Part shown: in pieces, positions 5,901 to 19,300 of the stretch
How the letters are laid out: each line of letters starts with the position of its first letter
Position numbering within the stretch: position 1 is the stretch's first letter
IMG/VR virus record: IMGVR_UViG_3300005323_000029
Span: 1 to 38,904 of that record
Origin: a virus
Lineage: Duplodnaviria > Caudoviricetes
DNA: 38,904 bases
Reading direction: 5' to 3' (one strand)
The notes under the pieces: generated by a model
The model's database searches: none
Told to the model about the DNA's origin: nothing
The model's input: the letters and a program-made list of their open reading frames with translations, nothing else
Made by a program: the position numbers and the translations under genes

Positions 5901-5981
5901 TGGTCTCAGGAGGCAGGACTCGAACCTGCGACGATAGAGGCAACGAGTGCCTTAGGCTCTACCAACTGATTTACTCCTGAG
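5901..5981 (-). tRNA. non-canonical tRNA-like gene (no assignable anticodon)
   Basis: Minus strand: CTCAGGAG/CTCCTGAG acceptor + A-CCA; T arm GCAGG-TTCGAGT-CCTGC; D loop AGTTGGTA; aberrant anticodon arm. Confidence 0.8.
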
Positions 5982-9962: not shown

Positions 9963-10568
9963 TTATAAAAACTCTTTTAACATTTCTGATCGCATTGGAT
10001 GGCGTAATTTACGTAAAGCGTTGTCTTCAATTTGCCTTATTCTTTCCTTTGATACACCAATTTCTTTTCCAGTTTGTTCCAAAGTATGATCGGTATTCAT
10101 GTTAATACCAAATCGCATATGTAAAACTTTTTTTTCTATTTGAGTCAAAGTATCTAAAACTTCGTTCATTTTATTTTCTAGTTTGTTTTCTAATTTTTCC
10201 TTATCAATCTGATCTTCTAATGGTAATAAATATTGGTCGTTAGAGATATGTTCTAAATAATTTTTGATTTCAGCTTCGGAAATTAGAACTTCTCTTCTTG
10301 TTACTCCTGTACAATGTTTTTGTTGTTCGGTGAATATTTGATCGGGAGAGCATTGTAAAGCATCGCAAAATTTTAATATAACAGGTCTCCAGTCACCATT
10401 CTTCGCGCTCAAAGGGGATTGAGATAAATTTATAAATTTTGATATAGAAGTATAACAAATATCATGATCCTTACAAAATTTTGGTATGGAGTCATAACCT
10501 TTTTGTTTTAATTTAGATAGAATTAAGTTGTTTTTTACTTTGATTTCTAGTTTATATTCTTCGGTCAT
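9963..10568 (-). CDS. XRE-like HTH fused to RpoD-type sigma70 region 4
   Basis: C-terminal [51 protein letters not shown]; no region 2 seen. Confidence 0.85.
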
Positions 10569-11819: not shown

Positions 11820-13130
11820 TTAATCTCTTCCTTCTATGTTTTTAATAAATTCCAGAACATTAGATGAAAAACCATCTATATGAGTCCATTTACCATACCC
11901 AATACCATTTTTATTAACTCCTACATTTATCATATAAGATTGTTTGAATTTAGAAGGAATGACAGTATCGCTAGATTGTTCATCAGTGATTACGATAATT
12001 CTTGAATTTTGGAAATTACTTAAATTTATAATATTAATTGCTTTTCCTAATTCTGTTCCTCCATGATGTTGACTTGTACATATACAATCTTTTAATGCAA
12101 AACCTCTTCTAGGAGCGCATTGAACTATTTGATTAGAAAATGTAAAAATTTCTATATTTGTATATATTTCTCTTGCTAATATTGCTATAGAACAAGCCGT
12201 ATCAAGACGGGTCATTTTACTTTTTGAGCTTAACTTATTTTGCATGCTTCCAGAAACATCAATTAATAAAACAGTAGACATAGAATCTTTTTGTGTATCA
12301 TTTAATAATTTTAACATTGGAGTTTCTAAAATATCTTCCCATTGAGGGACTTCATTTGCAGCAGCTATAAATCTAAATGGAAGTACTTTATCTAAGTTAA
12401 TACTGTTTAAATAATTAACTACAACGTTTTTATCAATTCCTGATTCTTGCATGTTTCGTAAATTTCTTAATGTAGCTAATGCTCCTAGTTTTTTTTCTAA
12501 CATTAAACGTTCAAAAGTTTCTTTTTTATTTTTTCCTGCTGACAATGCAACTTCCCAAGTATCTGGAGTTTTTAATTCATTATTTATTAGTTTTTTCCAT
12601 AAAGATTCTTGTTCTTGATCTTTTGGTTTTGCATGACATAAAAATAATACATCTCGTAATTTTATTTTTTCATCTCTATTATATTTTGCTAATTGATATT
12701 CATTGAATTTATTAAAAGCATGGGCAAGGCCTTGCTTTACTTTTTTAGATAATGGGCATTTCTTATCTTGCCAATAGATAGCCAAAAACTCTGTTAATTC
12801 ATCTGGACGCTTAATTATATGTGATAAAGTTCTTGCAACATATTTTTTATGTGAATTGTATCTGGCCATTTCCCTAACAATTAATAATGGAATATGACGT
12901 AAATTCATTTTGTCTCGAGCATCTCGAGCTATTTGTACAACTTTTAATGGTTCTACTTTTGGTATTAGTTTTTTTATACGATCAGAAATGCTAATTCCAT
13001 CTTCATAAAAACTATCTTCCCATAATAAACAACTCATAACACTGCGTTTTAATTGTTGTTCTGGATTAATGTGACAAGCAACTGCGCCTTCATGTGTATA
13101 AAACTTTTCAACTTTTGTATTTAATTTCAT
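11820..13130 (-). CDS. rsr: Ro60/Rsr RNA-binding protein (TROVE + vWA)
   Basis: THEGA, LLWEDSFYE, RPDELTEFLA, FNEYQLAKY, TPDTWEVALS, ATLRNLRN, LPFRF; MIDAS DVSGS and ITDEQ. Confidence 0.93.
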   Translation of the reverse strand: MKLNTKVEKFYTHEGAVACHINPEQQLKRSVMSCLLWEDSFYEDGISISDRIKKLIPKVEPLKVVQIARDARDKMNLRHIPLLIVREMARYNSHKKYVARTLSHIIKRPDELTEFLAIYWQDKKCPLSKKVKQGLAHAFNKFNEYQLAKYNRDEKIKLRDVLFLCHAKPKDQEQESLWKKLINNELKTPDTWEVALSAGKNKKETFERLMLEKKLGALATLRNLRNMQESGIDKNVVVNYLNSINLDKVLPFRFIAAANEVPQWEDILETPMLKLLNDTQKDSMSTVLLIDVSGSMQNKLSSKSKMTRLDTACSIAILAREIYTNIEIFTFSNQIVQCAPRRGFALKDCICTSQHHGGTELGKAINIINLSNFQNSRIIVITDEQSSDTVIPSKFKQSYMINVGVNKNGIGYGKWTHIDGFSSNVLEFIKNIEGRD

Positions 13131-13209: not shown

Positions 13210-13218
13210 TAAAAAAAG

Positions 13219-13346
13219 TTCGGGAACAAACGATAAAAGTTTTGCGCTCTACCAACTGAGCTACCGGATGACTTTTGTCAACCAGGCTGGAATCGAACCA
13301 GCGACCTCATCATTAACAGTGAAGTAACTTTTATCTACGCCACGAA
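13219..13346 (-). ncRNA. yrlA: YrlA-type Y RNA with permuted tRNA-like domain
   Basis: GGCGTAG-ATAAAAGT/ACTTTTATC stem encloses a T arm (GCTGG-TTCGATT-CCAGC), a loop-closed acceptor-like stem, then a D arm (GCTC-AGTTGGTA-GAGC); upstream of Ro60. Confidence 0.9.
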
Positions 13347-14981: not shown

Positions 14982-15764
14982 ATGAAAGAAGTAAAAAACA
15001 AATCTTTTGCAAATGGTTCAGTTTATTGTCTTAAGTTATCCGATGGGTTCTTAATTGAAACAACTGATACTTTTCTGCCATATTATACAAAACATTGTTA
15101 TAACAATAATAATGAATTACGCAATAATATTCTTGCTTCAAGAAAAGAAAGATGGATGATTGGAGCTAGTGTCATGTCGGGTTGTCCTGTAAGGTGCAAA
15201 TTTTGTGCAACAGGCAAAATGAAAAGATGGCGTAATTTAGATAGTGAAGAAATAATAAAACAAGTTAAATTTATTCTTGATAAAAACAATAAAATTAATC
15301 CTAGTGTAAGTAAAGAGTTTAAGATAAATTATACTCGAATGGGGGAACCATTTTTAAATATTGATAATGTAAAAGAAGCTATAAACTATATATCAGGAAT
15401 ATATCCTAATACTCATCATTATATTTCTACGATAGGATTAAAAGACTCTGATTTTTCATGGATAAAAGACAATATTACATTACAAATTAGTTTACATAGT
15501 TTGAATGAAGAACGAAGAAATAATCTAATTCCAATTAAGAATTTATTATCTATAGAAGAGTTAGGAAAGATAAGAACCAAGAGCAAATTAAAAACAACAA
15601 TAAATTTAACATTAGTTAACGAATTAGATTTTGATTTAGAGAAAATAAAGAAATATTTTGATCCTAAATATTTTTTTATTAAACTTTCACCGATAAATAA
15701 AAACGTTATTAGTGAAAGTAATTTGTTAGGATCTGGTATAATAGAATCAATTAATTTAATTTAG
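14982..15764 (+). CDS. RlmN/Cfr-family radical SAM protein, large part (lacks the C-terminal catalytic Cys segment)
   Basis: DG.LIET, GCPVRCKFCATG, RNL..EEI..QV, MGEP, ISTIG, ISLHS...RR..LIP, LSPIN. Confidence 0.9.
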   Translation: MKEVKNKSFANGSVYCLKLSDGFLIETTDTFLPYYTKHCYNNNNELRNNILASRKERWMIGASVMSGCPVRCKFCATGKMKRWRNLDSEEIIKQVKFILDKNNKINPSVSKEFKINYTRMGEPFLNIDNVKEAINYISGIYPNTHHYISTIGLKDSDFSWIKDNITLQISLHSLNEERRNNLIPIKNLLSIEELGKIRTKSKLKTTINLTLVNELDFDLEKIKKYFDPKYFFIKLSPINKNVISESNLLGSGIIESINLI

Positions 15765-15775
15765 AGGATAATAAA

Positions 15776-15892
15776 ATGTCAATTTTAGAACAATTAAAAG
15801 AAGCTGGTTATGATTGTGCGATCGCAATTGCTACGCAAGCAGAAATAAAAGCTGAAGCTGCATGTGGACAATTAGCAATTATTTTTGAATAA
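15776..15892 (+). CDS. 38-aa peptide matching the RlmN C-terminal AACGQL segment (not in ORF track)
   Basis: MSILEQLKEAGYDCAIAIATQAEIKAEAACGQLAIIFE; own GAGGA RBS 7 nt upstream. Confidence 0.85.
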   Translation: MSILEQLKEAGYDCAIAIATQAEIKAEAACGQLAIIFE

Positions 15893-15924
15893 TAGTTAAA
15901 GTTTAGTTTTTAAACATATTGTAA

Positions 15925-16092
15925 ATTGTTTTATTTAGAGTAAAATTGTAATTGGGTTGGCAATCATATACAATTTTACTCTAAAACAATAAGAATCCTT
16001 TTCCGGGGTTTAGGTACAATTACATTTATTTAGAGTAAATGTTGATTGCTCAAACCCAATGCCTGACCCCGGAAAAGGATTTTTTATTGGAG
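15925..16092 (+). promoter_or_regulatory. structured leader with nested inverted and direct repeats upstream of the replication initiator
   Basis: 17-bp IR 15934-15950/15969-15985; 16-bp IR 15994-16009/16066-16081; 15-bp direct repeat at 15930 and 16025. Confidence 0.7.
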
Positions 16093-16100
16093 TAATGGAA

Positions 16101-18313: not shown

Positions 18314-18482
18314 TTATCGTTTCCTCTTTTAATTCTTCTTTGATTGAGTTGATTCTTTGAAGTATTTGAATCTCTGTAAGTTCTTTTATTTTCTTAAATT
18401 CTTTATTTTCCTGTTTAGTTTCAGATAATTTGAAGTCTAATTCGTTATTACATTTTTCACATTTCATTTTTTCGCATTTCAT
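18306..18482 (-). CDS. 58-aa protein, partial paralogue of 18914..19300 (not in ORF track)
   Basis: DFKLSETKQENKEFKKIKELTEIQI versus DFKLPETEQENEGLKKIKELTELRI. Confidence 0.55.
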   Translation of the reverse strand: MKCEKMKCEKCNNELDFKLSETKQENKEFKKIKELTEIQILQRINSIKEELKEETINE

Positions 18483-18917: not shown

Positions 18918-19300
18918 TTTGTTTTCTCTCTATTTTTTACTTTCCATTGTTCTTCTACATGATTTCCATTTTTTACTTCCTCATTTTCTAATTTATCTTT
19001 TATGTCATTGATAATTTCAAAGATTCTAAGTTCGGTAAGTTCTTTTATTTTCTTTAATCCTTCGTTTTCCTGTTCAGTTTCAGGAAGCTTGAAGTCAAAA
19101 ATCATATTTACGTAAGTATACATGCCTTCAGACTTAGGGATTGGCTCTCTACCATCAATATAGCCTACAAAGAAATTGGTTATATATTTGAAGATGTCTG
19201 TATCATCGTTAATGATGTAATCTTCGATAGCTTTACGTACTTTACGCGTAAAGGATCTATTTTTGGTGTAAGGAAGGTCTATGTATACTTTAATCAGCAT
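18914..19300 (-). CDS. hypothetical protein
   Basis: GAGG RBS; ATGA coupling. Confidence 0.6.
   Translation of the reverse strand: MLIKVYIDLPYTKNRSFTRKVRKAIEDYIINDDTDIFKYITNFFVGYIDGREPIPKSEGMYTYVNMIFDFKLPETEQENEGLKKIKELTELRIFEIINDIKDKLENEEVKNGNHVEEQWKVKNREKTK

What the first reader, a model, noticed from the sequence alone, without database searches (positions are those of the whole stretch)
14982..15892. Split RlmN/Cfr-like radical SAM enzyme with the catalytic Cys on a separate 38-aa peptide and no resolving Cys: candidate peptide-RNA cross-linking system
Seen: the 260-aa ORF carries the RlmN core motifs in order (IET, C68xxxC72xxC75, RNL..EI..QV, MGEP, ISLH, LSPIN) but stops before the terminal segment. 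Eleven nt later a separate ORF in another frame, with its own GAGGA RBS, encodes ILEQLKEAGYDCAIAIATQAEIKAEAACGQLA, which matches the RlmN C-terminus. The residue 7 upstream of the first cluster Cys is Gly61 (IGASVMSGC versus E. coli LCVSSQVGC). Established: RlmN methylates Cys355 in ACGQL, forms a covalent Cys-CH2-adenosine adduct with RNA, and needs Cys118 to release it; C118 mutants stay cross-linked to RNA. Inference: loss of the resolving Cys together with detachment of the Cys355 segment makes sense if the peptide is a consumable co-substrate left attached to an adenosine in tRNA, rRNA or a phage RNA while the large subunit turns over. Alternatives: a heterodimeric methylase using another Cys (peptide C14, large-subunit C16 or C39), or a peptide-modifying enzyme.
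Basis: partly seen in the sequence, partly recalled or inferred. Interest (0 to 1): 0.93.

Follow-up and report, generated by a model that had tools for sequence, protein, structure and literature searches.

The report
Two-piece phage RlmN-like radical enzyme
This phage and many others encode a relative of the RNA-methylating enzyme RlmN as two separate genes, with the predicted methyl-carrying cysteine on a 38-residue peptide and RlmN's second catalytic cysteine missing; it likely works as a two-part enzyme that probably methylates a small NAD-pathway nucleotide instead of staying stuck to RNA.

Summary
The split is not an error: contigs from two other runs bridge the junction unchanged. Of 102 distinct close homologues none is fused, all have Gly at the C118 position, and a separate ACGQ-peptide gene was found for 101, in any frame and up to 5.7 kb away. 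The RNA cross-link idea is only weakly supported. C118 is also missing in a large single-chain bacterial clade that keeps the C355 tail and forms one clade with the split family (93/93 bootstraps), so C118 loss does not depend on the split. It travels with a new active-site Arg (R119). The RNA-binding N-terminal domain and the ribose-binding Arg344 equivalent are gone. Relatives often sit among NAD-salvage genes (21/64 groups), but this phage has no NAPRTase/NAMPT gene, and C118-keeping phage relatives show the same link (13/54). Best reading (0.4): a reusable two-subunit enzyme that methylates a small nucleotide without a resolving Cys. A consumed, cross-linked peptide stays open (about 0.3, RNA about 0.1). 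Co-folding was unavailable. Nine literature searches found no description. This scan has reported the same family before on other DNA.

The parts
14982..15764 (+). Core subunit, 260 aa, RlmN/Cfr-type radical SAM partial barrel without the N-terminal HhH2 RNA-binding domain and without the last helix, strand and catalytic loop
   Evidence: TIGR00048 77 bits, cut-off 290; pLDDT 92.9; top ten Foldseek hits all RlmN/Cfr, best TMq 0.68
15162..15164 (+). Gly61, at the position of the resolving Cys118 of RlmN (Cys105 of Cfr)
   Evidence: invariant in 131 aligned sequences
15183..15206 (+). CxxxCxxC [4Fe-4S] motif, C68/C72/C75
   Evidence: an intein interrupts this motif in L021 and a like-sized relative P0122 carries intein domains
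15336..15338 (+). Arg119 (TRMGEP), replacing Gly177 of RlmN; invariant, shared with single-chain C118-less relatives
   Evidence: (76 of 77)
15764..15768 (+). Shine-Dalgarno-like GAGGA of the peptide gene, overlapping the core's stop codon
   Evidence: sequence; duplex energy -5.8 against +0.4 for the core gene
15776..15892 (+). 38-aa peptide subunit: equivalent of the last helix, strand beta7 and the ACGQL loop of RlmN
   Evidence: (11 invariant positions in 49 sequences)
15824..15826 (+). Peptide Ala17 (invariant) at the position of RlmN Arg344 / Cfr Arg327, which in Cfr binds the target ribose
15863..15865 (+). Peptide Cys30, equivalent of RlmN Cys355 / Cfr Cys338 (predicted methyl carrier)

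Best explanation
The two ORFs are the two halves of an RlmN-derived radical SAM enzyme that lacks the resolving cysteine; they likely assemble into a reusable heterodimer that probably adds a SAM-derived methyl to a small nucleotide of NAD salvage instead of to ribosomal or transfer RNA. Inferred steps: (1) the peptide docks as the last helix, strand and loop of the barrel; (2) SAM no. 1 methylates peptide Cys30; (3) the 5'-deoxyadenosyl radical from SAM no. 2 turns the methyl into a Cys-S-CH2 radical; (4) this adds to an aromatic ring of a small anionic substrate held by the new cationic site (R119, K114, K234); (5) the adduct loses its proton without a Cys base, which is easy if the ring is a pyridinium (NAD, NMN or NaMN; general chemistry, recalled), or via another residue; the C-S bond breaks and the Cys radical is re-reduced through the cluster. 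A separate peptide would let a damaged or stuck tail be replaced cheaply. Shown: split, motifs, fold, residue changes, phylogeny and gene neighbours. Not shown: binding, substrate, product or turnover.
For: Split is universal in the close family: 0 of 102 fused, peptide found for 101. C118-less proteins are one clade in 93 of 93 bootstraps, and its single-chain SNCGQ branch holds in 90 of 93. That branch sits in a conserved small-molecule operon: isochorismatase-family hydrolase 39/80 loci, TrxR-fold flavoprotein 63/80, the latter with CxxC in only 3 of 54; the hydrolase is fused to the enzyme in P0196 and P0270. That looks like a turning-over enzyme with an electron donor, not a suicide protein (inference). 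The peptide is tethered to the core in circular permutant P0142 and is single-copy in 36/37 records. RNA-binding features are lost; the peptide's median net charge is -5. NAD neighbours: 21 of 64 groups; a NAPRTase/NAMPT-family gene in 22 of 37 records, within 3 kb of the core in 9 of 21 against 0.85 expected. The genes lie inside bacterial NAD operons: L111 pncA, pncB, nudix, core, rSAM2, MTase, peptide, nadE, NAD kinase, nadD-like, cinA, nrtR, and L135 nrtR, nicotinamidase-like, NAPRTase, core, peptide. An orphan peptide lies directly between NMNAT-Nudix and NAMPT in L185. Five cellular hosts also hold an RlmN-length paralogue.
Against: No substrate or product was measured. The window's own complete phage has no NAPRTase/NAMPT gene, and 43 of 64 groups show no NAD gene nearby. 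The NAD link is not specific to C118 loss: 13 of 54 groups of the single-chain phage clade that keeps C118 have it, and 0 of 27 groups of the single-chain C118-less clade do. The uniform-position null is lenient because accessory genes cluster. In RlmN/Cfr, loss of this Cys traps the cross-link, and no replacement base was identified. The tandem peptide of D479 and the stronger peptide SD fit a consumed peptide. The C118-keeping phage clade also lacks the N-terminal domain, so that loss does not single out this family.
Confidence: 0.4

Rival explanations
1. The peptide is a consumable co-substrate that ends covalently joined (Cys-S-CH2-) to a small adenine or pyridine nucleotide such as NAD, ADP-ribose or an immune signal, or serves as a sacrificial C1/sulfur donor, while the core turns over by exchanging peptides.
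For: C118/C105 loss traps the adduct in RlmN/Cfr. The split is kept in 102 of 102. Tandem peptide in D479. Peptide SD stronger in 33 vs 17 of 57 groups, p 0.009. Orphan peptide genes without a detected core in G036 and L185. NAD neighbours.
Against: Single-chain C118-less clade and tethered permutant P0142 would be single-use. One copy in 36/37 records. The peptide supplies a barrel strand, which argues for a stable subunit (inference).
Confidence: 0.2
2. One reading: the peptide is left cross-linked to an adenosine in tRNA, rRNA or a phage RNA.
For: Mechanistic precedent of C118A/C105A mutants. A Ro60 gene and a YrlA-like RNA lie 1.6 kb upstream in this genome.
Against: N-terminal RNA-binding domain absent, Arg344/327 replaced by an invariant Ala, acidic peptide. 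Ro60 is next to the enzyme in no other locus held, and 0 of 9 Ro60 loci carry the enzyme. C118 loss does not depend on the split.
Confidence: 0.1
3. Heterodimeric nucleic-acid methylase making free m2A/m8A (or a DNA base) with a non-cysteine base.
For: Fold and motifs are RlmN/Cfr. Several sources auto-annotate homologues as RlmN.
Against: Far below family cut-offs (77 vs 290 bits). No conserved second Cys. Substrate-contact residues changed. Hosts keep an RlmN-length paralogue.
Confidence: 0.13
4. Peptide- or protein-modifying system: the Cys-methyl radical acts on a partner protein, e.g. the ~100-aa protein with a Cys/Gly/Ser tail that comes with a second radical SAM gene between core and peptide.
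For: rSAM3 lies near the core in 18 of 64 groups and rSAM2 / MTase-like genes in 10 and 11. rSAM3 is fused to the permuted enzyme in P0142 and in frame with the peptide in L158.
Against: This window and many other groups have neither cassette. The two cassettes replace each other, so neither is required.
Confidence: 0.12
5. Sequencing error or decaying pseudogene.
For: Only the look of a frameshifted C-terminus in one sequence.
Against: Junction confirmed in two other runs. 0 of 102 homologues fused; spacers in all three frames (32/10/10 of 52) and up to 5.7 kb with genes between. 11 invariant peptide residues.
Confidence: 0.01

Closest known systems
RlmN (23S rRNA A2503 / tRNA A37 C2-methyl synthase; TIGR00048; PDB 3RF9, 3RFA, 4PL1, 5HR6, 5HR7, 6FZ6)
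   Same: Fold (Foldseek E 1e-11, TMq 0.68), CxxxCxxC, MGEP, SLH, E105 equivalent (E26) and the ACGQL methyl-carrier loop.
   Different: Two genes; C118 is Gly; G177 is Arg; R344 is Ala; no N-terminal HhH2 domain; 77 bits against a 290 cut-off.
Cfr (23S rRNA A2503 C8-methyl synthase; NF000424, TIGR04432; PDB 9P0P)
   Same: Same scaffold and C338-equivalent Cys.
   Different: 55 bits against a 530 cut-off; C105, R327 and the RNA-binding domain absent. Nothing here indicates a resistance gene.
RlmN C118A / Cfr C105A laboratory mutants
   Same: No resolving Cys; these mutants stay cross-linked to RNA (PDB titles).
   Different: Here the loss is natural, clade-wide and accompanied by a rebuilt active site.
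Phage NAD reconstitution pathways NARP1/NARP2/NARP3 (bioRxiv 10.1101/2024.02.11.579819; PMC13464706)
   Same: The split genes are often next to or inside NMNAT-Nudix/NAMPT operons.
   Different: Neither main text contains 'radical' or 'RlmN'. The enzyme is not a described NARP component, and this phage has no NAPRTase/NAMPT gene.
GrcA/YfiD glycyl-radical spare part; THI4/THI5 suicide enzymes (recalled, not tested)
   Different: Unrelated folds and chemistry; analogy only.

Membership tests
Radical SAM superfamily | CxxxCxxC motif and partial TIM barrel | tested here: met
   PF04055 42 bits over cut-off 29.5; model and fold search
RlmN/Cfr (class A radical SAM methyl synthases) | Methyl-carrier Cys in the CGQL motif | tested here: met
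   Present, but on a separate 38-aa gene product
RlmN/Cfr (class A radical SAM methyl synthases) | Resolving Cys (C118/C105) | tested here: not met
   Gly in 102 of 102 close homologues with a readable motif; no other conserved non-cluster Cys
RlmN/Cfr (class A radical SAM methyl synthases) | N-terminal HhH2 RNA-binding domain | tested here: not met
   Profile position 4 aligns with Cfr residue 66; domain described
RlmN/Cfr (class A radical SAM methyl synthases) | Single polypeptide | tested here: not met
   0 of 102 fused
RlmN (TIGR00048) or Cfr (NF000424) | Score above curated cut-off | tested here: not met
   77.5 vs 290; 54.8 vs 530
RlmN/Cfr (class A radical SAM methyl synthases) | Methylates adenosine C2/C8 in RNA using two SAM | not testable with these tools
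   Needs biochemistry
Split-enzyme heterodimer | Core and peptide bind | not tested
NARP1/2/3 NAD reconstitution | Nampt+Nmnat, Adps+Namat or NadR+PnuC genes | tested here: not met
   No PF04095 gene in this genome (NadR/PnuC not searched); the enzyme is a frequent neighbour elsewhere, not one of these enzymes
Radical SAM RiPP system | Precursor with leader and variable or repeated core | tested here: inconclusive
   Peptide is conserved over its whole length and homologous to the enzyme's own tail; one tandem case in 37 records

The most novel reading that the evidence does not exclude
A radical SAM 'ligase': the core uses a free, consumable 38-aa peptide as its radical carrier and leaves it covalently bridged (Cys-S-CH2-) to a nucleotide, either an NAD/ADP-ribose-type metabolite or immune signal or an adenosine in RNA. 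That would make the trapped intermediate of the C118A mutant the natural end product.
Probability: 0.3. Interest if true: 0.92.

Novelty: new variant of a known kind. Interest (0 to 1): 0.74.

Why it matters
RlmN/Cfr chemistry is described as needing two cysteines on one chain and acting on RNA adenosine. Here a widespread natural family (2120 protein clusters; crAss-like, jumbo and small phages and some bacterial chromosomes) keeps one cysteine, on a separately made 38-residue chain. A second, single-chain branch without C118 sits in a conserved hydrolase-flavoprotein operon. Either outcome is new enzymology: C118-independent methylene transfer to a non-RNA substrate, possibly an unknown NAD-pathway reaction relevant to phage counter-defence, or a peptide-nucleotide ligation. 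A synthetic peptide also makes the RlmN mechanism testable in trans (labelled, pre-methylated or analogue Cys). Many of these genes are auto-annotated as RlmN, which is probably wrong.

Tried and rejected
Complex prediction of core plus peptide was not available (queue full; nothing folded), so binding has no verdict here. The wide VIA-align search was busy and was not repeated. No RNA holder was listed for this DNA, so expression is unexamined. Indel or pseudogene: rejected. Ribosomal frameshift or readthrough making one chain: rejected as a family rule, because spacers fall in all three frames, about half the cores have 0.9-5.7 kb and whole genes before the peptide, and in G001 the peptide lies upstream. 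Peptide C14, core C16 or C39 as substitute resolving Cys: not conserved. The flavoprotein of the single-chain operon as a resolving dithiol: CxxC in only 3 of 54. Ro60/Y RNA as a conserved partner: not found in other loci. Twin hairpin after the peptide as a conserved element: no sequence match elsewhere, and z below -3 in only 13 of 46 downstream regions. Neighbourhood controls with Ro60 and Tpt1 returned only 9 and 2 loci: too few for a proper background. Context of the tail-less clade A6: none found in viral contigs, and among 301 genomes of one phylum the only match was the known split core of G038. The careful tree did not finish (one search is the quick tree; one search has no supports). 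Whether P0177/P0199 are ancestral single chains or re-fusions is unresolved (20-27 of 93 bootstraps). The peptide profile alone finds no significant PDB, Pfam, NCBIfam or PHROG match. The ESM Atlas gave only unnamed radical SAM clusters.

Full report
OBSERVATION. The window is a complete 38.9-kb phage record with direct terminal repeats. It holds a 260-aa ORF at 14982-15764 and, after 11 nt and a GAGGA, a 38-aa ORF in another frame at 15776-15892. The core is a radical SAM protein. Its best families are RlmN and Cfr, far below their cut-offs (77 vs 290 and 55 vs 530 bits). Its AlphaFold model (pLDDT 92.9) has RlmN/Cfr structures as its top ten Foldseek hits. Gly61 aligns with RlmN residue 118, and peptide Cys30 with Cys355. 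Contigs from two other runs bridge the junction without a difference (contigs only).

THE SPLIT IS A FAMILY TRAIT. The protein search gave 2120 clusters; 119 of the best 120 are 257-285 aa and the other has an N-terminal extension. From 151 loci I took 110 distinct enzymes (53 groups at 85% identity). 102 have Gly at the C118 position and none of these carries the CGQ tail. Five are single-chain with both cysteines, one is single-chain with Thr, and two were fragments or frameshifted and are left out. A separate peptide gene lies within 400 nt in 51 of the 102 (the window included), 0.9-5.7 kb downstream in 46, and was found by profile for four more. The last, L132, ends 724 nt after the stop. 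Spacers fall in all three frames (32/10/10 of 52). Between core and peptide there can be a second radical SAM gene plus a methyltransferase-like gene, a Cys/Gly/Ser-tailed 100-aa protein plus another radical SAM gene, or an endonuclease-like gene. Conversely, 46 of 49 distinct peptide-anchored loci hold a core. The peptide has 11 invariant positions among 49 sequences; Cys14 is not one. Cultured carriers include crAss-like OQ198717, Moorella phage MTATph1, Vibrio phage D479 and Pectobacterium phage Arno162.

WHAT ELSE CHANGED. In Cfr the N-terminal HhH2 domain binds RNA, Cys105 removes the proton that lets the cross-link break, and Arg327 binds the target ribose (bioRxiv 10.64898/2026.02.27.707579: passages and the active-site section read; PMC4689488: passages). 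The core lacks that domain. The Arg is an invariant Ala17 in the peptide, and RlmN Gly177 is an invariant Arg119. The peptide's median net charge is -5. This reads as a rebuilt, more cationic internal site and a poorer RNA surface (inference; no coordinates were available to check).

C118 LOSS DOES NOT DEPEND ON THE SPLIT. A profile search of 50% representatives found single-chain relatives with Ile, Leu, Met, Thr or Asn at 118, Arg at 177 and an intact CGQ tail. All C118-less proteins form one clade (SH-aLRT 98 in the quick tree; 93 of 93 FastTree bootstraps on 60 chosen rows), and the single-chain SNCGQ branch holds in 90 of 93. In the best 80 of 580 metagenome loci of that branch, 0 of 77 readable enzymes have Cys118, 76 have the Arg and 73 have the tail. 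63 of 80 loci carry a TrxR-fold flavoprotein and 39 an isochorismatase-family hydrolase. The flavoprotein has CxxC in 3 of 54, and the hydrolase is fused to the enzyme in two proteins. If cross-linking were the end product, these 300-aa enzymes would each work once; suicide enzymes exist (THI4/THI5, recalled), so this lowers but does not remove that reading. P0142 (46 members) carries the peptide at its N-terminus, then the core, then a second radical SAM domain, and groups with the split family in 73 of 93 bootstraps; it has Asp at 118 and may have changed function. The near single-chain relative P0177 folds as a complete RlmN-like protein, with the peptide-equivalent region as helix, strand, helix. 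Whether it is ancestral or re-fused is unresolved.

IS THE PEPTIDE CONSUMED? For: D479 encodes two tandem copies in one ORF. The peptide's Shine-Dalgarno is stronger than the core's in 33, weaker in 17 and tied in 7 of 57 groups (p 0.009; heuristic start choice). Peptide genes without a detected core occur in G036 (complete) and G037/L185 (29% complete). Against: one copy in 36 of 37 records, whole-length conservation, and the tethered forms above. I put consumption at about 0.3.

SUBSTRATE. NAD-salvage genes lie within the fetched flank in 21 of 64 split-family groups with a locus of at least 8 kb, 15 of them within 1.5 kb. The queries came from some of these loci; their identities were checked by Pfam/NCBIfam. 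Across whole records, 22 of 37 large phage contigs carry a NAPRTase/NAMPT-family gene (this family also covers NARP1 Namat). For scale, NARP1 and NARP2 together occur in 5.4% of sequenced phages (bioRxiv 10.1101/2024.02.11.579819, passages), but my set is biased to large genomes. In 21 of these 22 (G037 dropped, no core found) the gene is within 3 kb of the core in 9, against 0.85 expected from uniform placement. The genes sit inside bacterial NAD operons in L111/L123 and behind nrtR in L135, and five cellular hosts also hold an RlmN-length paralogue, judged by length and score only. Against: this phage has no such gene, 43 of 64 groups show none nearby, the C118-keeping phage clade shows the same link in 13 of 54 groups, and the single-chain C118-less clade in 0 of 27. 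So NAD context points away from rRNA/tRNA for phage RlmN-like enzymes in general. It does not explain the C118 loss, and it could partly reflect shared accessory islands. A pyridinium substrate would give an adduct acidic enough to need no Cys base (general radical chemistry, recalled): this is the reason for my best guess and is untested.

LITERATURE. Nine searches found no description of a split or C118-less RlmN-like family. Most hits were seen as listings with abstract starts only. The two NARP papers read by passage contain neither 'radical' nor 'RlmN' in their main text. The library lacks most subscription papers, and I read no supplements; phylogenetic surveys of RlmN/Cfr that I could not see may list these clades. 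Earlier notes of this scan report the same family in other genomes. They are not independent evidence; one prompted the test of single-chain relatives.

VERDICT. A real, widespread and apparently undescribed two-gene variant of the RlmN/Cfr scaffold. It works like RlmN up to the Cys-methyl radical (inferred) but fails membership on the resolving Cys, the RNA-binding domain and single-chain structure. Best reading 0.40: reusable heterodimer methylating a small NAD-pathway nucleotide. Consumed peptide on a metabolite 0.20; on RNA 0.10; nucleic-acid methylase 0.13; protein modifier 0.12; artefact 0.01. Interest 0.74: surprising to a radical SAM specialist and directly testable with a synthetic peptide, but substrate and outcome are unknown.

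Noticed in passing
window 11820-13130 (-) and 13211-13332 (-): Ro60/TROVE gene with a YrlA-like tRNA-shaped RNA directly upstream (Rfam RF02553, 42 bits, E 3e-6, below the gathering score of 69). Not found next to the split enzyme in other loci held.
   Followed up: partly
window 15893-16095 (+): Two long hairpins right after the peptide gene (-70 kcal/mol, z -8.6), including a perfect 17-bp stem; no sequence match in other loci. It precedes a replication-initiator-like gene.
   Followed up: partly
L232-L311 (metagenome loci): Conserved three-gene operon: isochorismatase-family hydrolase, TrxR-fold flavoprotein without CxxC, single-chain RlmN-like enzyme lacking C118. No paper found. Worth its own study.
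   Followed up: partly
L312-L391, L146-L148, L150, L151: Single-chain phage RlmN-like clade that keeps both cysteines but lacks the N-terminal domain; next to NAD-salvage genes in 13 of 54 groups.
   Followed up: partly
proteins P0202, P0186 and others of alignment A6: Clade with Gly at 118 that ends right after the last strand, so lacks the CGQ cysteine altogether; no genomic context obtained.
   Followed up: partly
protein P0142: Circular permutant: peptide-like segment, core, then a second radical SAM domain in one 695-aa chain; 46 cluster members.
   Followed up: partly
L005:4794-5995, L085:6793-7998, L124:6784-8010 and others: About 100-aa proteins ending in a DPCG...SxC-type tail, paired with a radical SAM gene between core and peptide; precursor-like, no Pfam or NCBIfam match for the two tested.
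   Followed up: no
L021:2759-4561: Intein-like insertion right after the cluster motif of the core (intein domains in the similar P0122).
   Followed up: no
L015:7943-8785: A second, single-chain RlmN-like gene with C118 about 3 kb downstream of a split pair in the same phage.
   Followed up: no
window 5905-5980 (-): Weak tRNA-like match (Rfam 31 bits) not called by ARAGORN.
   Followed up: no
window 18322-18440 and 18981-19099: 119-nt direct repeat, 75% identical, 659 nt apart.
   Followed up: no
window 9963-10568 (-): HTH plus sigma-70 region 4 protein, strongly RpoD-like at its C-terminus.
   Followed up: no
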